Position numbers and translations under genes: made by a program. From assembly GCA_044220495.1 (NCBI GenBank), contig JBGAQY010000007.1:11112-75111 (forward strand): a DNA stretch of 64,000 nt. Reading direction: 5' to 3'. This DNA comes from Acidimicrobiales bacterium (lineage in GTDB: Bacteria > Actinomycetota > Acidimicrobiia > Acidimicrobiales > JBBSGY01). Positions 3,692 through 10,624 of the stretch are shown piece after piece; positions within the stretch are counted from its first letter, which is position 1; each line of letters starts with the position of its first letter. The notes beneath the pieces are model-generated. The model saw only the letters and a list, made by a program, of their open reading frames with translations. It was not told the origin of the DNA and searched no databases.

Positions 3692-4243
3692 ATGAGTAAC
3701 CCAACGCTCGAAGAGCTCACCGGTCCTGAATTTGCGAGCGCAGTCGAGTCGCTGCCGCTCGACGAGCTGCGCCGCCGCCGCACGGCCTGTCAAGACGCCG
3801 AAGAGGCCTTGTCGCTGCAACGGCGACTCGTGCAAGGTCGTCTCGACATCGTGCAAGCCGATCTGTATCGACGCAGTGGTGGATCAGACGATGAAGTTGC
3901 GAATCTTGTTGCGTCACTTCCTGACATTTTGGTTGAGCACGGTGATCGTCATCTCGGTCCAGGGCGCCTGACCTCTGTCGAGAGTGGCTCAATCGCTCTC
4001 GGTGCAGATTTCGAGAAGCTTGTAGATCGTCTCGATGAAATAGTTGACGGCGCAAAGCTTTCGAGTCTCGACAGCTACGACGAATCAGACGTACGTCGAA
4101 TAGCGGACGAACTCGACGAACTCGAACGTGGCATTTCGGTCAAGCGTCATCAACTGCACAAACATATAGATCGATTTCAAGAAGAAGTGGTTCGTCGTTA
4201 CAAGACCGGCGAGGCCTCTGTCGAGGGATTGCTCGGTTCGTAA
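3692..4243 (+). CDS. rsiG: RsiG/AmfC family c-di-GMP-binding anti-sigma factor
   Basis: LDELRRRR...EEALSLQRRLVQGRLD matches E-x3-S-x2-R-x3-Q-x3-D; a second copy ERGISVKRHQLHKHID has Q replaced by H. Confidence 0.8.
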   Translation: MSNPTLEELTGPEFASAVESLPLDELRRRRTACQDAEEALSLQRRLVQGRLDIVQADLYRRSGGSDDEVANLVASLPDILVEHGDRHLGPGRLTSVESGSIALGADFEKLVDRLDEIVDGAKLSSLDSYDESDVRRIADELDELERGISVKRHQLHKHIDRFQEEVVRRYKTGEASVEGLLGS

Positions 4244-4588: not shown

Positions 4589-5698
4589 GTGACTTTTCTT
4601 GTCAACAACAAGCGCGCACGGCTGTTTGGGTGTGTTGCGATGCTGTTGTCATCAGCATTCATGGCGGCCCCTGCGGTAGCTGCTGATCAACCCGGCCCCA
4701 AAGCATCGATCGACGAACTGAAAGCAAGCGACGCCGAGCTAACGGCTGCTCTTGCTGATCTCGATGCACAGGTTGCCAAGAAGCAGATTTCATTGCGTAG
4801 CGCGCAGCAAGCTCTTGACGCAGCCAACACCGCTCTCGCCAACAGCGACTCGGCAATGGCACAAGCGCAAGCCCGTATTGATCAGCTGCGTGGCGCTGCT
4901 GCGCAACGCGCAATCGATCAATACATGTACCCACAAGATGATCCGATTGGCCGAGTCTTGGGTTCAGACGGGTTGGCCGATGTCGGCCGACGCGCTGCTT
5001 TGCTGCAAGAAGTCAACGGACGCGATCGCGATGTCATCGACCAGTTGGGTGCGGCACGCTCTGATCTCGAACGCGAACGCAAAGCAGCGACTGCTGCACG
5101 TGCAATCGCCGACCAGCGACGCGCAACTGAGCAAGCTGCTCTTGATCAGTTGACGAAGACGCGTGATGAAAAAGCACGACTCGATAAGTCGTTGCAACAG
5201 CGCATCGAAACCTACGCAGCTGAAGATGAAGCTGGCGCAGCAAGCACCAAGACGACGACTTCTGGTCGTGCATCACGCGGTGGTGCTTCGTCGGTTGACG
5301 ATCGCATCTCGGCTGCCGGCATGCGTTGGCCTCTGCAGGGTCCGATTCGTTCGCCGTTTGGGCCTCGATGGGGTCGTATGCACACCGGTATCGACATTGG
5401 TGGCACTGAAGGTGCGCCGATCTATGCGGCCAAGGCCGGCAAAGTTATTTCCGCCAACTACGACGGCAGCGGTTACGGCAACCTCACAAAGATCGACAAC
5501 GGCGGCGATCTCGAAACTTGGTATGCGCACCAAAGTCGAATTGCAGTCTCGGCCGGCCAAACTGTCGAAGCAGGCGAGCTCATCGGATATGTCGGCCATA
5601 CCGGCCATGTCGTCCCTGCCAACGCAAGCGGCGCCCACCTGCACTTCGAGACCCGCATCGGCGGCTCGCCGCGAAACCCTCAGCAATACCTGCCGTAA
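4589..5698 (+). CDS. Secreted M23 peptidase with an N-terminal coiled coil (murein hydrolase or activator type)
   Basis: Signal peptide (..AAPAVAA), long coiled coil, HTGIDIG and HLHFE zinc motifs, TWYAH; start codon uncertain. Confidence 0.92.
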   Translation: MTFLVNNKRARLFGCVAMLLSSAFMAAPAVAADQPGPKASIDELKASDAELTAALADLDAQVAKKQISLRSAQQALDAANTALANSDSAMAQAQARIDQLRGAAAQRAIDQYMYPQDDPIGRVLGSDGLADVGRRAALLQEVNGRDRDVIDQLGAARSDLERERKAATAARAIADQRRATEQAALDQLTKTRDEKARLDKSLQQRIETYAAEDEAGAASTKTTTSGRASRGGASSVDDRISAAGMRWPLQGPIRSPFGPRWGRMHTGIDIGGTEGAPIYAAKAGKVISANYDGSGYGNLTKIDNGGDLETWYAHQSRIAVSAGQTVEAGELIGYVGHTGHVVPANASGAHLHFETRIGGSPRNPQQYLP

Positions 5699-5766: not shown

Positions 5767-6549
5767 ATGCTTTGCATAATCGGCGGCGGAAAAATGGGTG
5801 AAGCGCTACTTGCTGGTCTTACGGCCCACGGTCGCGAGGTCACCGTCATCGAACGTGATCCTGCTCGTCAGGAGTATCTGAAGATGCACCCCGCTGGCTA
5901 TCAAATCTCTGAGAAGCCTGTGCCATGCGAAGGCGCAATCATTGCGGTGAAGCCCAAAGACGTTGAGCTTGCGATAAGCGACGCGGTGACTGGTGGGGCA
6001 CAGCGCATCTTGTCGATCGCCACCGGCATAACGCTGGCCAAACTGCATCAAGCTGCTGGTGGTCGCGTGCCCGTCGTGCGTGCAATGCCCAACATCGGCG
6101 CGTTGGTTGAGCGTTCAGCCACGGCGATTTGTGGCGGATCGACTGCACACGAAGAAGACCTCGTGTGGGCTGAGTCTGTGTTGTCATCAAGCGGACGTGT
6201 TGTTCGCATTGCTGAAGATCAGATGGATGCCGTTACCGGGCTGTCGGGCTCGGGGCCGGCGTACTTGTTCTTGATTGCCGAAGCGATGATCGACGGTGGT
6301 GTCGCAGCAGGGCTTTCGCACAACGCAGCAACCGAACTGACAATCGAAACGTTTGTCGGCGCTGGTGCATTGTTGGCGTCAAAGACGCGCGCTCCGGCAC
6401 AATTGCGCGCTGATGTAACAACGCCAGCTGGCACGACCGCTGCTGCATTGAGACGTCTCGAAGATCGCGGTGTTCGCGCTGCGATTGTCGATGCAGTGTT
6501 GGCAGCGACGGCGCGCAGTCACGAACTCGGCTTGCCGCAGCAGCACTGA
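5767..6549 (+). CDS. proC: Pyrroline-5-carboxylate reductase
   Basis: IGGGKMG, RAMPN, TGLSGSGPAY and VTTPAGTT motifs. Confidence 0.96.
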   Translation: MLCIIGGGKMGEALLAGLTAHGREVTVIERDPARQEYLKMHPAGYQISEKPVPCEGAIIAVKPKDVELAISDAVTGGAQRILSIATGITLAKLHQAAGGRVPVVRAMPNIGALVERSATAICGGSTAHEEDLVWAESVLSSSGRVVRIAEDQMDAVTGLSGSGPAYLFLIAEAMIDGGVAAGLSHNAATELTIETFVGAGALLASKTRAPAQLRADVTTPAGTTAAALRRLEDRGVRAAIVDAVLAATARSHELGLPQQH

Positions 6550-6559
6550 CGCGCATTCG

Positions 6560-7369
6560 ATGACGAAGCAGTACCAAACGATCTCGTTTTTGAGCGATTA
6601 CGGATTGCGCGATGAGTTTGTGGGTGTAACCAAATCAGTGATCCATTCGATCGCTCCACACACCACTGTCATTGACATCACTCATGAAGTTCCGGCTTAC
6701 GACGTTCGTTCTGGATCACTCACGCTTGTTCGCGCGGCGAACTACTTGGTGGCTGGCGTAGTGATTGCTGTTGTTGATCCGGGCGTGGGATCGGCGCGGC
6801 GCGCGATTGCTGTTGAAGTCGGTGACGGCGAAAGCGTGCTCGTGGGCCCCGACAACGGGCTTCTTGCCCCAGTTGTGTCGCTCATCGGAGGGCCAACGCG
6901 GATCGTCGAGCTTGTCAACGAGAAGTACCAACTGACGACCGACGCAGCAACGTTTGCTGGCCGCGACATTTTTGGTCCAGCTGCCGCGCACATTTGCAAC
7001 GGAGTTGATCTTGCGGAGTTTGGTCCGTCGATCGACGCCTCAGAGTTGATGCCCGCGGTTGTGCCCTTCAGTGCCGTGTCGAACGGATCACTCGAAGCCG
7101 ACGTGTTGTGGGTCGATCGTTACGGCAATGTGCAACTCAATGTCACGCCGAATCAGCTGAGCGATTACGGCGATCGCATTGTCGTGAAGATGACGAGTGG
7201 GCCCGTCACTGCAACACGCGCTCGAGCGTTTGCTGATCTTGCTTCAGGCGAAGCGGGATTACTGATTGATGCAAGCGGTCTCGCCGCGTTGGTGCTCAAT
7301 CAAGACTCGGCCGCTGCTCGTTATTCAGTTGCCGAGGGCGACAGTGTTTCGCTTCACCGCCCGCTGTAA
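6560..7369 (+). CDS. SAM hydrolase / SAM-dependent halogenase family protein (DUF62)
   Basis: FLSDYG, DITH, VVDPGVG, GPDNG, TFAGRDIF and DRYGN motifs. Confidence 0.92.
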   Translation: MTKQYQTISFLSDYGLRDEFVGVTKSVIHSIAPHTTVIDITHEVPAYDVRSGSLTLVRAANYLVAGVVIAVVDPGVGSARRAIAVEVGDGESVLVGPDNGLLAPVVSLIGGPTRIVELVNEKYQLTTDAATFAGRDIFGPAAAHICNGVDLAEFGPSIDASELMPAVVPFSAVSNGSLEADVLWVDRYGNVQLNVTPNQLSDYGDRIVVKMTSGPVTATRARAFADLASGEAGLLIDASGLAALVLNQDSAAARYSVAEGDSVSLHRPL

Positions 7370-7379
7370 CTTCCGAGAA

Positions 7380-8096
7380 CTAGCCCTGGGTTGCGATCGA
7401 ACCGACTTCAGCCAGACCTTGCACAATGCGAGCCGACGGGGTCGGAAGCACGGGGGCTGGGGCTGGAGCAGGAGCTGGGGCCGCAACGGCGGGGGCCGGA
7501 GGCGGTGCAGGCTGAACGGCCTTGGCTGAGCTCGAGACAGGCTTGGGCTTGGCTGCTGGCTTAGGGGCAGCAGTCGGCTTTGGTGCTGCAGGCTTGGCGG
7601 CGGCAGCAACCTTGGGGGCCGGGCTCGACGAAGCCGAGCCACTCGATCCGCCAGCGCCTGGGTAGGCAGCGAAGACGTGTGAGGTGTAGATGCGGTTGTC
7701 GCTGCCAACGGCAACGCCTACGCCGATGCTGTTGAACGAGCCCTCGACCATGTTGCGGTAGTGGCCTGAGCTGGCGACGAGGGCGTCAAAGATGGCGTCG
7801 ACGTCTCCGCCGGTGCCCACGTTCTCGCCGACCTTGGTCCAGTTGCCCGGAACGCTGCCGAGAGCGGGGTTGTGCGAAATCTTGTTGGCGGCGGCCATTT
7901 TCTCGGCCCACGCCTGAGCGACGCCTGACAGACGACCGTCGACGCTGAGAGCGCCGAGGCCCTTTGATGCCCGCAGGCCGTTGATCTTGGAAACAAACTC
8001 GCCTGAAGTTGCTGCTGATGCTGGTGCTGATTGAAGGATGGAAACAAATAGGGCAATGGCAAGTGCCACAAATGCGATAGAGCTTCTTTTCTTCAA
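7380..8096 (-). CDS. Secreted CAP (SCP/Tpx/Ag5) domain protein with a Pro/Ala/Lys-rich linker
   Basis: Signal peptide; INGLR, SHN, GENVG, SSGHYRNM and IGVG CAP motifs; AGGAGG Shine-Dalgarno 7 nt before the TTG start. Confidence 0.9.
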   Translation of the reverse strand: MKKRSSIAFVALAIALFVSILQSAPASAATSGEFVSKINGLRASKGLGALSVDGRLSGVAQAWAEKMAAANKISHNPALGSVPGNWTKVGENVGTGGDVDAIFDALVASSGHYRNMVEGSFNSIGVGVAVGSDNRIYTSHVFAAYPGAGGSSGSASSSPAPKVAAAAKPAAPKPTAAPKPAAKPKPVSSSAKAVQPAPPPAPAVAAPAPAPAPAPVLPTPSARIVQGLAEVGSIATQG

Positions 8097-8136
8097 ACTT
8101 CAGCCTCCTGGTGATCCCACTTGGAGGCACGAATGC

Positions 8137-8229
8137 CCCATTCGGTAGCCCGGCTGCCATGAGGGAAGATCCCTGTAAGGCCCTTGGCTTTGCGCCTCAC
8201 CGATTTCTCGGTGGTTGCCGTTTCGTGGG
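8137..8229 (-). ncRNA. Class I cyclic-di-GMP (GEMM-I) riboswitch aptamer
   Basis: Minus strand CCCACGAAACGGCAACCACCGA-GAAA-UCGGUGAGGCGCAAAGCCAAGGGCCUUACAGGGAUCUUCCCUCAUGGCAGCCGGGCUACCGAAUGGG. It shows P1 CCCACG/CG..UGGG, a GNRA-capped P2, GCAAAGCC, a tetraloop-receptor-like CCUUA..AUGG, and G20/A47/C92 equivalents. Confidence 0.85.
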
Positions 8230-8246
8230 TGTTTGTTGTGGTGGCT

Positions 8247-8273
8247 TTATCGGAGTTTCCCGAGAAGTCTTGA
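8247..8273 (-). promoter_or_regulatory. Putative sigma28/WhiG/FliA-type promoter for the riboswitch-CAP transcript
   Basis: Minus strand TCAA-N15-TCCGATAA versus consensus TAAA-N15-GCCGATAA; ends about 17 nt before the aptamer. Confidence 0.5.
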
Positions 8274-8442
8274 GGGCCGACTTCAAACCGTCACGTTCTG
8301 AACCGTTCAACAAGATCACGAATTTCTAAGAAATCCCTGGTCGACGTGCCCTCTTGATCGCTAAGCACCGAGGCCTCGTTAACATGGCCGCCGTGCCGAT
8401 TCGTAACGTGTTCTCCACAGACAGTGACGAGGGGCACCCACA

Positions 8443-9705
8443 GTGTCGGTAGTCATGGTCGGTTTGAGCCACCGAAGCGCGGGCCTCGATCTCGTTGGCA
8501 AGGCAGCAGTTGCGCCCGACCACATGCCCGAGTTCCTTAAGCGCCTATTGAAGAGCGATCACATCACCGAGGCTGCTGTGCTGTCGACGTGTATGCGCAC
8601 CGAGGTCTATGTCGACGCCGTTCGTTTTCACGGCGCAGTCGCTGACGTCCGCCTGGTTCTCGCCCAGAACGCCGACGTTCCTCTCGAAGAAATCACCGGT
8701 GAAACCATCGAGCTGTTCGATGACGCCGCCAGCCGACATCTATTTAGAGTCGCCGCCGGGCTCGAATCAGCTGTCGTTGGCGAGGCCGAGATCTTGGGTC
8801 AAGTGGCGCGAGCGTGGAGCTCCGCCCGTGAAGTCGGAGCGTCGCGTCTCGTGCTCGGGTCGTTGTTCCGTCACGCCGTGCGAGCCGGCAAGCGTGCCCG
8901 TCACGAGACGGCCATTAGTCGAGGCATCACGTCAATCGGCCAGGCCGCTGTCGTAATGGCCGAACGCGCCGTGGGGGGATTGGCCGACAAGCGCGTACTC
9001 ATCCTTGGCGCCGGAGAGATGGGCGGGGGCATGGGTGCAACTCTCAAGGTTGCTGAAGGCGTCGGCGATGTTGTCGTATGCAACCGCACACAAGGGCGTG
9101 CTGAAGAACTCGCTACTGAGATTGGTGCACGGGCGATTCCGTTTGACGAGTTGTTGAGTGAGCTTCAGTTTGTCGATGTCTTGTTGACATCCACAGCTGC
9201 CGAGCACGCTGTTCTGAGCGCTGATGACGTGCGACGGTCGATGCAAGGGCGGGCCCAACGGCCGTTGGCGATTGTCGACATGGGTTTGCCGCGAGACGTT
9301 GAAGAATCGGTTGCCGAGATCGACAACGTCACCGTGCTTGATCTGTCTGATCTCGAGTCATTTGCTGACGTTGGCCGCAGTGAAAGGTCCAACGAAGTTG
9401 CAAGTGTCGAGCAGATCGTTGATGCCGAAGCGGTTGCCTATGCGCACGACATTTCAGCGCGATCGGTCGTTCCGGTAGTGCGTGGGTTGCGTGATCGCGT
9501 CGAAGAGATTCGTCTTGCTGAGCTAGAGCGTCGTCGCACGCAGCTCGACACGCTGAGCGCCGAGCAGCGCGCCATGGTCGAAGCACTCACACAAGCAATG
9601 CTTGCCAAAGTTCTGCATGGCCCAACTGTTCGCCTCAAACATGCGGCCGGCACCCCTGAGGGCGAACGCATGGTCGAGGCCGTTCGCAACTTGTTGGATC
9701 TGTAA
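8443..9705 (+). CDS. hemA: Glutamyl-tRNA reductase
   Basis: GLSHR, STCMRTE, GLESAVVGEAEILGQ and LGAGEMG motifs. Confidence 0.95.
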   Translation: MSVVMVGLSHRSAGLDLVGKAAVAPDHMPEFLKRLLKSDHITEAAVLSTCMRTEVYVDAVRFHGAVADVRLVLAQNADVPLEEITGETIELFDDAASRHLFRVAAGLESAVVGEAEILGQVARAWSSAREVGASRLVLGSLFRHAVRAGKRARHETAISRGITSIGQAAVVMAERAVGGLADKRVLILGAGEMGGGMGATLKVAEGVGDVVVCNRTQGRAEELATEIGARAIPFDELLSELQFVDVLLTSTAAEHAVLSADDVRRSMQGRAQRPLAIVDMGLPRDVEESVAEIDNVTVLDLSDLESFADVGRSERSNEVASVEQIVDAEAVAYAHDISARSVVPVVRGLRDRVEEIRLAELERRRTQLDTLSAEQRAMVEALTQAMLAKVLHGPTVRLKHAAGTPEGERMVEAVRNLLDL

Positions 9706-9709
9706 GTCG

Positions 9710-10624
9710 GTGTCTTCTCGCAAACTTCGTGCTGCCACGCGCGGGAGCATCTTGGCTTTGTGGCAAACCAATCATGTTGCCGAGTTGTTGGGTGTAGAAG
9801 TCGAAAACGTCGTCGTACAGACCCTGGGCGACACCACGCAGAAGACCAACGCGCCTATTGAGTCAATGCGCGGCCAAGGTGTTTTTGTCAAAGAGGTACA
9901 GGCTGCAGTACTAGAAGGACGAGCCGACTTTGCGGTGCACTCCGCCAAAGATTTGCCTTCAGATACTGCCGACGGTTTGATACTCGCCGCCGTGCCCGAA
10001 CGTGGCGACCCTCGCGACGCGTTGATCGGTTGCGCACTCGAAGACCTACCGGCCGGCGCCCGTATTGGCACGGGGTCGGTGCGGCGACGCGCACAACTTG
10101 CGTTCTTGCGGCCCGACCTGACGTTTGCCAACTTGCGCGGCAATGTCGATACGCGAATTGCCAAGGCTGGCGATTTCGACGCCATCGTCATGGCCTACGC
10201 GCCGATACAACGTCTTCAACGAACCGACGTGACAGCGCACGTGTTGTCGCCGGCGACGATGTTGCCGCAAGTCGCGCAAGGTGCACTTGCCGTGGAGTGT
10301 CGCGAAGACGATGAAGAGACAATCGAGCTCTTGCAGTCGATTGAGCATGTCTACAGTCGCATTGCTGTCGACGCTGAGCGGGCCTACCTTTCACGCCTCG
10401 GTGGCGGATGTGACTTGCCCGTCGGTGCGCACGCGACCGTGAGTGCGCACGGCGAGATAGCAATGCGCGCGCTCTTGGCTTCTCTCGACGGGCGCATTGC
10501 GTTGAGAGCGCGCGGCACGGGCAATGATCCCGAACAGCTCGGACGCAAGTTGGCTGAGCAACTCTTGTTTCGTGATGGTGGCTCTGAACTGTTGTTGAGC
10601 CACAAGATGTGGCACAGCTCTTGA
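9710..10624 (+). CDS. hemC: Hydroxymethylbilane synthase
   Basis: TRGSILALWQ, GVFVKE, VHSAKD, LRGNVDTR and LGGGC motifs; GTG start at 9710. Confidence 0.96.
   Translation: MSSRKLRAATRGSILALWQTNHVAELLGVEVENVVVQTLGDTTQKTNAPIESMRGQGVFVKEVQAAVLEGRADFAVHSAKDLPSDTADGLILAAVPERGDPRDALIGCALEDLPAGARIGTGSVRRRAQLAFLRPDLTFANLRGNVDTRIAKAGDFDAIVMAYAPIQRLQRTDVTAHVLSPATMLPQVAQGALAVECREDDEETIELLQSIEHVYSRIAVDAERAYLSRLGGGCDLPVGAHATVSAHGEIAMRALLASLDGRIALRARGTGNDPEQLGRKLAEQLLFRDGGSELLLSHKMWHSS

What the first reader, a model, noticed from the sequence alone, without database searches (positions are those of the whole stretch)
8097..8229. c-di-GMP-I riboswitch with a legible translational OFF platform controlling a secreted CAP protein
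The aptamer matches the GEMM-I architecture with a G20 equivalent, which predicts c-di-GMP rather than cGAMP. Downstream the RNA reads ...CCGAAUGGGGCAUUCGUGCCUCCAAGUGGGAUCACCAGGAGGCUGAAGU-UUG. Unbound, GGGGCA-UUCG-UGCCUC can form and keep the anti-SD away, leaving AGGAGG free. Bound, P1 consumes AUGGG, so GCCUCC-aa-GUG-ggau-CAC-ca-GGAGGC buries the SD. To my knowledge GEMM-I switches are described mostly in Firmicutes and Proteobacteria; an actinobacterial one on a CAP gene seems little studied.
Basis: partly seen in the sequence, partly recalled or inferred. Interest (0 to 1): 0.85.

Follow-up and report, generated by a model that had tools for sequence, protein, structure and literature searches.

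The report
c-di-GMP riboswitch before secreted CAP gene
The leader of a secreted CAP-domain protein gene in this uncultured actinobacterium (probably order Acidimicrobiales) holds a genuine class-I c-di-GMP riboswitch that most likely blocks translation when c-di-GMP is high; the RNA class and mechanism are known, but the link to CAP genes and to a flagellar/WhiG-type promoter is widespread and I found no report of it.

Summary
Rfam's c-di-GMP-I model matches window 8229-8141 (minus strand) end to end at 62.1 bits (cut-off 35). It is the only copy in the 3.0-Mb genome. A 238-aa signal-peptide plus CAP-domain protein starts 45 nt downstream, at TTG 8096. I compared 51 distinct CAP-linked leaders from sister genera, order-level relatives and metagenomes. 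In all of them the P1 3' strand overlaps an SD-like GGGG(G)C that pairs with the anti-SD, and the same anti-SD can pair with the real SD. Both helices co-vary (swap tests: 7 and 13 of 20,000 permutations). Four other CAP leaders put the real SD at the P1 strand itself, which gives the same logic. Three corrections apply. The SD-sequestered fold is the predicted ground state even without ligand (about 4 kcal/mol), so control is probably kinetic. The inner GUG/CAC stem is not conserved, whereas GUGG is, and it complements the P1 5' strand. GEMM-I is common in Actinomycetota (174 of 401 genomes). A conserved WhiG/sigma-28-type promoter precedes the aptamer, and rsiG lies 4 kb away, which suggests two layers of c-di-GMP control. 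Verdict: a new member of a known kind. Ligand binding and switching remain untested.

The parts
8247..8273 (-). WhiG/FliA (sigma-28)-type promoter: -35 TCAA (8273-8270), 15-nt spacer, -10 TCCGATAA (8254-8247). The transcription start is inferred at about 8241-8238.
   Evidence: Read from the sequence. CTCAAG-N15-17-(G/T/C)CCGAnA is conserved before nearly all 15 CAP-linked aptamers of related genomes and in 35 of 45 metagenome leaders by a strict pattern. It matches the published WhiG2 consensus T(A/C)AA-N16-GCCGATAA. The start site is an inference and was not mapped.
8141..8229 (-). c-di-GMP-I (GEMM-I) aptamer. It has a GAAA tetraloop hairpin, the AAA linker with the A47 equivalent (8191), the G20 equivalent (8219) and the C92 equivalent (8145).
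   Evidence: RF01051, 62.1 bits, E 9.8e-10, full model. It is the only copy in the genome.
8224..8229 (-). P1 5' strand: CCCA (8229-8226) plus inner CG (8225-8224).
   Evidence: It pairs with UGGG 8140-8137 and with C93/G94 8144-8143, as for P1a of Vc2 (G14, G94, U96). One compensatory change was seen (CCGA/CCGG in G012_L036) and one A-U to G-U change in G001.
8137..8144 (-). P1 3' strand: CG (8144-8143), AA bulge, UGGG (8140-8137). It overlaps hairpin A by three G.
8124..8139 (-). Hairpin A (anti-anti-SD): SD-like GGGGCA (8139-8134), UUCG (8133-8130), UGCCUC (8129-8124). It holds the anti-SD when P1 is open.
   Evidence: -6.9 kcal/mol alone. Present in all 51 leaders. It is the RNAalifold consensus of 9 diverse platforms. 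Swap test: 7 of 20,000 permutations.
8123..8133 (-). Anti-SD strand: GCCUCC (8128-8123), extended by UUCG (8133-8130).
   Evidence: It pairs with GGAGGC 8108-8103 and UGAA 8102-8099 (-15.2 kcal/mol as a duplex; -13.6 kcal/mol for the core hairpin).
8116..8120 (-). Conserved GUGGG, complementary to CCCAC (8229-8225). Proposed long-range helix of the SD-free (ON) fold.
   Evidence: GUGG sits directly after hairpin A in 45 of 51 leaders against 7.4% in shuffles. When hairpin A is enforced, the best fold contains this helix here and in 37 of 51 leaders. There is no covariation, because both strands are nearly invariant.
8103..8109 (-). Shine-Dalgarno AGGAGG(C), 7 nt before the start codon.
7380..8096 (-). 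Monocistronic gene for a secreted CAP-domain protein of 238 aa with a TTG start. It has a signal-peptide-like N-terminus, a CAP domain at residues 36-136, and a Pro/Ala-rich tail.
   Evidence: The TTG start is kept in G001, G002 and L071. The gene is convergent with a SAM_HAT gene and divergent from hemA.
3692..4243 (+). rsiG-like gene (c-di-GMP-dependent anti-sigma of WhiG). It is context for the promoter and not part of the riboswitch.
   Evidence: PF22802 RsiG, E 1e-21, two matched stretches. It is syntenic with the CAP orthologue in at least 13 genomes of the order.

Best explanation
This is a class-I c-di-GMP riboswitch that acts as a translational OFF switch on a monocistronic mRNA for a secreted CAP-domain protein. 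The RNA probably starts near 8240 from a WhiG/sigma-28-type promoter. When c-di-GMP is bound, the closing helix P1 forms (CCCA-CG with CG-aa-UGGG) and takes three G of the SD-like GGGGCA. Hairpin A then cannot hold the anti-SD, and UUCG-U-GCCUCC pairs with GGAGGC-UGAA, which buries the Shine-Dalgarno sequence 7 nt before the weak TTG start. Without ligand, hairpin A (GGGGCA/UGCCUC) forms first during transcription. The freed 5' strand CCCAC pairs with the conserved GUGGG, and the SD emerges unpaired. The sequestered fold is the predicted ground state, so the decision is probably made co-transcriptionally. What is shown: family membership, contact bases, gene identity, and conservation and co-variation of both alternative helices. 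What is inferred: ligand binding, the direction and kinetics of switching, the transcription start, and the role of GUGGG.
For: Aptamer: RF01051 at 62.1 bits, full length, with G20, A47 and C92 equivalents present. All three genomes of the family carry one copy, each before the orthologous CAP gene with a TTG start. In 61 order-level genomes, 15 of 38 RF01051 hits lie directly upstream of a CAP-domain gene. Of 94 metagenome matches to a pattern taken from this aptamer, 54 have a CAP gene directly downstream, giving 47 distinct leaders. All 51 analysed leaders have hairpin A (-6.7 to -15 kcal/mol) and a duplex between its loop plus 3' strand and the SD region (-8 to -21 kcal/mol). Partners are matched. 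Cognate against swapped partners gives -13.64 against -11.04 kcal/mol for the sequestor (13 of 20,000 permutations) and -9.45 against -7.71 for hairpin A (7 of 20,000) on 11 de-replicated leaders. Paired variants seen are GCCUCC/GGAGGC, CCCUCC/GGAGGG, CCUCCC/GGGAGG and CCUCU/AGAGG, and A-U, G-U and U-A at the pair flanking CAGCCC/GGGCUG. Four other CAP leaders place the true GGAGG at the position of the P1 3' strand, which gives the same OFF logic by a simpler route. There is no terminator-like site. ON and OFF folds are near iso-energetic across the family (median difference +1.9 kcal/mol). In Vc2, ligand-bound P1 formation represses translation (PMC11705072). The genome encodes 9 GGDEF domains. 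A metatranscriptome contig covers 8020-8221.
Against: In this copy the SD is predicted about 99% paired with P1 enforced, forbidden or free. The SD-free fold is 4.1-4.3 kcal/mol less stable. By equilibrium energies alone the gene would be off regardless of ligand. The outer P1 is only 4 bp and shows little covariation. The CCCAC/GUGGG helix rests on conservation only. No ligand-binding, structure-probing, start-site or reporter data exist. The single RNA contig is sparse sampling and could contain DNA. Helix extraction for the swap test used energy-optimised pairings, although the controls were optimised in the same way.
Confidence: 0.75

Rival explanations
1. The aptamer binds c-di-GMP, but the main output is mRNA abundance. 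Blocked translation would expose the leader and early ORF to Rho-dependent termination or to RNase, rather than translation initiation being the regulated step as such.
For: No intrinsic terminator is present, so any transcriptional effect would have to be factor-dependent. The only RNA contig found covers just the leader and the first 76 nt of the ORF (8020-8221). General knowledge: translational riboswitches often have secondary Rho or decay effects.
Against: The conserved, co-varying elements are exactly those of SD sequestration. The short RNA contig matches the sparse 170-290-nt contigs seen over the rest of the organism in that run. This reading adds to the best explanation and does not replace it.
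Confidence: 0.12
2. In this particular copy the platform is locked. The SD is sequestered whatever the ligand state, the gene is constitutively weakly translated, and the aptamer is a conserved but here ineffective relic. Alternatively it needs another factor to open the SD.
For: SD unpaired probability is about 0.01 in all three ensembles, and the ON fold is 4.1-4.3 kcal/mol higher.
Against: Every element is intact and matches close relatives (G002, L071), whose ON-OFF gaps are only 1.3-1.4 kcal/mol. +4 kcal/mol lies inside the family range of -5.5 to +12.3. Nearest-neighbour multiloop energies are uncertain by a similar amount, and co-transcriptional folding favours hairpin A forming first.
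Confidence: 0.08
3. The aptamer senses another cyclic dinucleotide (3',3'-cGAMP), or it acts as an ON switch.
For: GEMM-I contains cGAMP-selective members (GEMM-Ib), and many GEMM-I members are ON switches.
Against: Position 20 is G here and in all 15 aligned leaders. Wild-type G20 discriminates against cGAMP, and A20 is the cGAMP-type base (PMC6140456). The P1 3' strand overlaps the SD mimic, not the anti-SD, so stabilising P1 can only free the anti-SD.
Confidence: 0.05

Closest known systems
Vc2, the c-di-GMP-I riboswitch in the tfoY leader of Vibrio cholerae (Rfam RF01051)
   Same: Same aptamer family, with G20, A47 and C92 contacts and a closing P1 helix formed by the flanks. Ligand-bound P1 formation represses translation, making it an OFF switch (PMC11705072).
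   Different: Here the platform is short (45 nt). It is built from an SD-like decoy overlapping the P1 3' strand, an anti-SD and the SD, plus a conserved GUGGG complementary to the P1 5' strand. The host is an actinobacterium, the start codon is TTG, and the regulated gene encodes a secreted CAP protein.
GEMM-I elements that act through intrinsic terminators (78 of 322 in Weinberg et al. 2007; for example Bc1 of the Bacillus cereus group)
   Same: Same aptamer class in the leader of genes for surface, motility or secreted functions.
   Different: Those act through rho-independent terminators. No terminator-like site is present here, and control is by SD occlusion.
GEMM-Ib 3',3'-cGAMP riboswitches of Geobacter
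   Same: Same fold and Rfam clan.
   Different: They carry A at position 20. This RNA and all aligned relatives carry G.
RsiG-(c-di-GMP)-WhiG switch and WhiG-dependent promoters of Actinomycetota
   Same: The promoter upstream of the aptamer fits T(A/C)AA-N15/16-GCCGATAA. The genome encodes two FliA/WhiG-family sigma factors and a twin-stretch RsiG. Twin-motif RsiG has been reported in Acidimicrobiales (PMC8325347).
   Different: Published WhiG regulons cover sporulation genes, type IV pili, flagella and DGC/PDE genes. They were not reported with a c-di-GMP riboswitch in the same leader or with CAP genes in the papers I could search.
Bacterial CAP/SCP (PF00188) proteins of the YkwD type
   Same: Signal peptide plus a single CAP domain. 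There is a weak match to the YkwD subfamily model (48 bits).
   Different: The match is far below the YkwD curated cut-off of 171 bits. There is no sequence-detectable solved structure. The protein has a long Pro/Ala-rich C-terminal tail, and its function is unknown.

Membership tests
c-di-GMP-I riboswitch (Rfam RF01051, GEMM-I) | Covariance-model score above the curated gathering score over the full model | tested here: met
   62.1 bits against 35, E 9.8e-10, model 1-87 of 87, not truncated.
c-di-GMP-I riboswitch (Rfam RF01051, GEMM-I) | First hairpin (2-bp and 6-bp stems around a 3-nt internal loop) capped by a GNRA tetraloop, and an AAA linker to the second hairpin | tested here: met
   GC...GC plus CCACCG-AGAAAU-CGGUG with a GAAA loop, and GCAAAGCC with AAA at 8191-8189. 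The feature is as described.
c-di-GMP-I riboswitch (Rfam RF01051, GEMM-I) | Tetraloop-receptor-like motif in the second hairpin when the loop is GAAA | tested here: inconclusive
   CCUUAC / CAUGG stand at the positions of the consensus CUAAG / uAuG. This is a near match, not the canonical 11-nt receptor.
c-di-GMP-I riboswitch (Rfam RF01051, GEMM-I) | Ligand-contact bases G20 and C92, with the intercalating A47 | tested here: met
   G8219, C8145 and A8191 from the cmscan alignment. G8219 is invariant in 15 leaders.
c-di-GMP-I riboswitch (Rfam RF01051, GEMM-I) | Selective, high-affinity binding of c-di-GMP | not testable with these tools
   Needs in-line probing, ITC or a similar assay.
Translational OFF riboswitch by SD sequestration (Vc2-like logic) | Mutually exclusive helices that link the P1 3' strand to SD accessibility and are conserved in relatives | tested here: met
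   Hairpin A and the sequestor are present in 51 of 51 leaders and co-vary.
Translational OFF riboswitch by SD sequestration (Vc2-like logic) | Predicted SD accessibility differs between P1-formed and P1-open ensembles | tested here: not met
   SD unpaired 0.00-0.01 in all ensembles for this copy. The difference appears only if hairpin A is enforced, which points to kinetic control.
WhiG/FliA (sigma-28)-dependent promoter | -35 T(A/C)AA, a 15-16-nt spacer and -10 GCCGATAA with the central CGA | tested here: met
   TCAA-N15-TCCGATAA at 8273-8247. Conserved in relatives. Consensus.
WhiG/FliA (sigma-28)-dependent promoter | Cognate sigma factor, and for c-di-GMP control RsiG, encoded in the genome | tested here: met
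   TIGR02479 hits of 281.5 and 206.2 bits, both above the cut-off. RsiG PF22802, E 1e-21.
WhiG/FliA (sigma-28)-dependent promoter | Transcription start mapped at the right distance, and dependence on the sigma factor | not testable with these tools
   The only data point is a metatranscriptome contig ending at 8221. It is compatible but not informative.
CAP / SCP superfamily (PF00188) | Pfam model above its gathering score | tested here: met
   63.1 bits against 21.1, residues 36-136.
YkwD subfamily (TIGR02909) | Score above the curated cut-off | tested here: not met
   48 bits against 171. I file it as a CAP-domain protein, not as YkwD.

The most novel reading that the evidence does not exclude
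In Acidimicrobiales, and probably in other soil Actinomycetota, c-di-GMP gates a set of surface and secreted functions twice in series on the same transcript. These functions include CAP proteins, type IV pilins, GH5-like enzymes and TasA/camelysin-like proteins. The first gate is at initiation, through RsiG-(c-di-GMP) sequestration of a WhiG-type sigma factor. The second is at translation, through a class-I riboswitch inserted between an ancestral WhiG promoter and the ORF. Both layers switch off at high c-di-GMP, which would give a coherent, sharpened low-c-di-GMP response. The CAP protein would then be a conserved member of the motile or dispersal-state secretome, encoded next to rsiG.
Probability: 0.45. 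Interest if true: 0.65.

Novelty: new member of a known kind. Interest (0 to 1): 0.45.

Why it matters
The RNA class and the SD-sequestration mechanism are textbook, so the riboswitch itself is not a surprise. Three things go beyond the textbook. First, there is a recurrent, order-wide link between c-di-GMP-I riboswitches and secreted CAP-domain proteins (15 of 38 genome hits and 54 of 94 metagenome hits). CAP proteins have no known function in bacteria, and this link gives a concrete physiological handle: expression at low c-di-GMP, together with pilins. Second, the compact platform has many natural variants, with an SD decoy overlapping P1 and a conserved GUGGG. That makes it a good model for kinetic against thermodynamic translational switching in high-GC bacteria. 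Third, it is coupled to a WhiG-type promoter with rsiG nearby. This would be a two-layer, single-messenger control circuit, testable with existing Streptomyces RsiG/WhiG reagents. I found no report of this coupling.

Tried and rejected
(1) A sigma-70 promoter and intrinsic-terminator scan of 7200-8600 found nothing. A transcription-termination platform was therefore rejected.

(2) Equilibrium two-state folding of the window RNA showed no P1-dependent change in SD accessibility.

(4) A MAFFT column alignment of the platforms was too poorly registered for column-wise covariation. It was replaced by per-sequence helix extraction with a cognate-against-swapped test.

(5) My first automatic hairpin-A extraction merged downstream hairpins and was redone.

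(6) A scan of genome contigs with the CAP protein found only 3 distant relatives, none with a riboswitch.

(7) A loose WhiG-motif scan of the whole genome was noisy (124 hits against 72 in the reversed control). It was used only qualitatively.

(8) RNA evidence was sparse. One metatranscriptome run has a single 202-nt contig on the leader, which is too thin to define ends or regulation.

(9) A PDB sequence search with the CAP protein gave no hit.

(10) Literature searches for c-di-GMP riboswitch plus CAP domain, and for RsiG/WhiG plus riboswitch, found no relevant report. Two papers I wanted (PMC3689584 and PMC5304454) are not held.

Full report
**Observation**

- **Rfam hit.** A scan of the whole 64-kb window against Rfam 15 returns a single family above its gathering score. 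It is RF01051 (c-di-GMP-I) at 8229..8141 (-), 62.1 bits against a cut-off of 35, E 9.8e-10, covering model positions 1-87 of 87.
- **Copy number.** It is the only copy in the 3.0-Mb, 109-contig genome.
- **Contact bases.** From the alignment, the G20 equivalent is G8219, the A47 equivalent is A8191 and the C92 equivalent is C8145.
- **c-di-GMP synthesis.** The genome encodes nine GGDEF-domain matches, so c-di-GMP is presumably made.

**The regulated gene**

- ORF 8096..7380 (-) begins with TTG, 7 nt after AGGAGG.
- The 238-aa product has a signal-peptide-like N-terminus (LKKRSSIAFVALAIALFVSILQSAPASA), a PF00188 CAP domain (E 5.6e-17) and a Pro/Ala-rich tail.
- It falls far below the YkwD subfamily cut-off (48 against 171 bits) and has no sequence-detectable solved relative.
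- The gene is monocistronic. It converges on a SAM hydroxide adenosyltransferase gene (6470-7369, +) and diverges from hemA (8443-9705, +) and hemC.
- No terminator-like site lies in 7200-8600.

**Relatives**

The best outside CAP relative is from an Iamiaceae MAG. I infer from this that the organism belongs to Acidimicrobiales.

- **Same family.** All three genomes of its family have one RF01051 copy. In G001 and G002 it precedes the orthologous CAP gene (60-72% identity), again with a TTG start.
- **Same order.** Among 61 order-level genomes, 14 carry 38 RF01051 hits. Cross-referencing with a CAP-domain search places 15 of the 38 directly upstream of a CAP-domain gene on the same strand.
- **Metagenomes.** A scan with a pattern taken from this aptamer gave 94 stretches. 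Of these, 54 have a CAP gene starting about 40-60 nt downstream, giving 47 distinct leaders. The closest, L071, shares 67.5% protein identity and the TTG start.
- **Other targets in the order.** These are type IV pilins, GH5-like enzymes, a camelysin/TasA-like protein, an SdrD_B/FlgD_ig protein and a GGDEF protein. All are surface, secreted or signalling functions, as is classic for GEMM.
- **CAP in the literature.** CAP/SCP is not in the original GEMM gene list. I found no paper linking the two.

**Expression platform**

By analogy with Vc2, where P1a includes G11, G14, G94 and U96 and the ligand pairs with C92, P1 here has three parts:
- CCCA (8229-8226) pairs with UGGG (8140-8137).
- An AA bulge separates the two segments.
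- CG (8225-8224) pairs with C93/G94 (8144-8143).

One relative shows a compensatory change in the outer helix (CCGA/CCGG) and another an A-U to G-U change.

Eleven of the 15 genome leaders, and all the metagenome CAP leaders analysed, share this order of elements:
1. The P1 3' strand YGGG.
2. An overlapping SD-like GGGG(G)C.
3. A 3-7-nt loop.
4. The anti-SD GCCUCC or a variant.
5. Usually GUGG(G/A).
6. The SD.
7. The start codon.

The other four genome leaders place the true GGAGG exactly where the P1 3' strand or decoy sits, 6-11 nt before the start. That is the same OFF logic in its simplest form.

In all 51 distinct leaders analysed, two structures exist:
- Hairpin A, the decoy paired with the anti-SD (-6.7 to -15 kcal/mol).
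- A sequestor duplex between the loop plus 3' strand of hairpin A and the SD region (-8 to -21 kcal/mol).

Evidence that the partners are matched within each leader:
- On 11 de-replicated leaders, cognate sequestor duplexes average -13.64 against -11.04 kcal/mol for swapped partners (13 of 20,000 permutations reach this).
- Cognate hairpins A average -9.45 against -7.71 kcal/mol (7 of 20,000).
- Explicit paired variants include GCCUCC/GGAGGC, CCCUCC/GGAGGG, CCUCCC/GGGAGG and CCUCU/AGAGG.
- In the largest subfamily, the pair flanking CAGCCC/GGGCUG is A-U 11 times, G-U 4 times and U-A 4 times.
- RNAalifold on an unguided alignment of nine diverse platforms returns hairpin A as the consensus.

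**Energetics and the kinetic caveat**

- For the window RNA the minimum-free-energy fold already has the SD sequestered.
- The SD is about 1% unpaired whether P1 is free, enforced or forbidden.
- Hairpin A alone is -6.9 kcal/mol, and the core sequestor is -13.6 kcal/mol.
- Enforcing hairpin A gives a fold at -50.7 against -55.0 kcal/mol. That fold spontaneously includes a long-range helix between CCCAC (8229-8225) and GUGGG (8120-8116).
- Across 51 leaders the ON-minus-OFF difference has a median of +1.9 kcal/mol (range -5.5 to +12.3; the window is +4.1). The ON fold includes the long-range helix in 37 leaders.
- GUGG occurs directly after hairpin A in 45 of 51 leaders, against 7.4% of shuffles.

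I therefore read the device as an OFF switch whose ligand-free, SD-open fold is a co-transcriptionally formed state: hairpin A first, then CCCAC/GUGGG. Ligand capture of P1 pre-empts that fold. This is inference. It is consistent with the published Vc2 behaviour but untested here.

**Ligand**

G at position 20 is invariant in the 15 aligned leaders. Wild-type G20 discriminates against cGAMP, and A20 is the cGAMP-type base. c-di-GMP is therefore the expected ligand.

**Upstream promoter and circuit context**

Another first-stage note (e1-5250459) pointed to TCAA-N15-TCCGATAA at 8273-8247. I tested it.

- **Conservation.** The motif CTCAAG-N15-17-(G/T/C)CCGAnA is conserved about 15-27 nt before the aptamer in nearly all 15 genome leaders. 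It is present in 35 of 45 metagenome leaders by a strict pattern, with near matches in most of the rest.
- **Consensus.** It fits the published WhiG2 consensus T(A/C)AA-N16-GCCGATAA.
- **Sigma factors.** The genome encodes two FliA/WhiG-family sigma factors above the curated cut-off.
- **RsiG.** Window 3692-4243 encodes an RsiG-like protein with two matched stretches. Twin-motif RsiG was reported in Acidimicrobiales.
- **Order-wide presence.** WhiG-family sigma factors are found in 53 of 61 genomes and RsiG in 46 of 61.
- **Synteny.** rsiG and the CAP orthologue share a contig, 3-10 kb apart, in at least 13 genomes.
- **Riboswitch-less orthologues.** In orthologues at this locus that lack the riboswitch (G055, G042, G057, and near matches in G031 and G027), the same promoter type sits directly before the CAP start. 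This suggests the promoter is ancestral and the riboswitch is an added layer.
- **Combined logic.** If RsiG-c-di-GMP sequesters WhiG as in Streptomyces, both layers turn the gene off at high c-di-GMP.
- **Rest of the genome.** Clean sites of this type precede large secreted proteins and TadE/TadG-like and FlgB-like ORFs. The loose genome-wide scan is noisy, however (124 against 72 in the control).

**Transcription evidence**

One biofilm metatranscriptome run holds a 202-nt contig covering 8020-8221 with one mismatch. Coverage of the organism in that run is otherwise sparse, with small contigs at depth 2-6. This shows only that the leader is probably transcribed. It is compatible with a 5' end near the aptamer.

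**Novelty**

- GEMM-I is common in Actinomycetota by sequence: 174 of 401 genomes and 127 of 249 genera.
- The class, the contact bases and the OFF-by-SD-occlusion logic are known.
- I could not find three things described: the recurrent CAP association, the decoy/anti-SD/GUGGG platform family, and the placement behind a WhiG-type promoter next to rsiG.
- Earlier notes of this scan on other genomes reached similar readings. They are not independent evidence, but my own data reproduce them.

**Verdict**

This is a new member of a known kind. The two-layer reading is plausible, moderately interesting and unproven.

Noticed in passing
window 3692-4243 (+): RsiG-like anti-sigma gene (PF22802, E 1e-21, two matched stretches), about 4 kb from the riboswitch-CAP unit. 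rsiG and the CAP orthologue are on the same contig, 3-10 kb apart, in at least 13 genomes of the order.
   Followed up: partly
L134-L144 (G031, G055, G042, G057, G027 and others), upstream of CAP orthologues: CAP orthologues at the rsiG-linked locus that lack a riboswitch still have a TCAAG-N16-(G/C)CCGA-type promoter directly before the start codon, some nearly leaderless. The riboswitch looks like an insertion behind an ancestral WhiG-type promoter.
   Followed up: partly
L024, L009, L019, L021, L027, L020 (order-level genomes): c-di-GMP-I riboswitches behind the same promoter type precede type IV pilin genes (N_methyl motif). Their P1 flanks differ (UCCGG...CCUGG), and in L024 the SD GGAGGA directly follows the aptamer.
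   Followed up: partly
L016, L018 (G021, G054): GH5-like secreted glycoside hydrolase genes carry the same decoy/anti-SD/GUGGG platform as the CAP leaders (for example UGGGGGCUCCUUGCCUCCCGUGGGACC). The platform module is therefore not CAP-specific.
   Followed up: no
genome contigs C8, C11, C26, C30, C54, C103 (own genome): TCAAG-N16-GCCGATA-type sites lie only 7-8 nt before the start codons of large (350-580 aa) signal-peptide proteins. This suggests leaderless WhiG-dependent mRNAs. Similar sites precede TadE/TadG-like and FlgB-like ORFs.
   Followed up: no
window 8094-8096 and orthologues in L011, L013, L071: The weak TTG start codon of the CAP gene is conserved in four diverged relatives, while most other CAP leaders use ATG or GTG.
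   Followed up: no
L012 (G047:C2:10532-10625, -): Here an RF01051 hit lies downstream of a CAP gene rather than upstream of one. My ORF call after it was not convincing, so its target is unresolved.
   Followed up: no
window 4589-5698 (+): An M23 peptidase gene lies between rsiG and proC. The neighbours are proC (5767-6549), a SAM hydroxide adenosyltransferase (6470-7369), hemA (8443-9705) and hemC (9602-10624).
   Followed up: no
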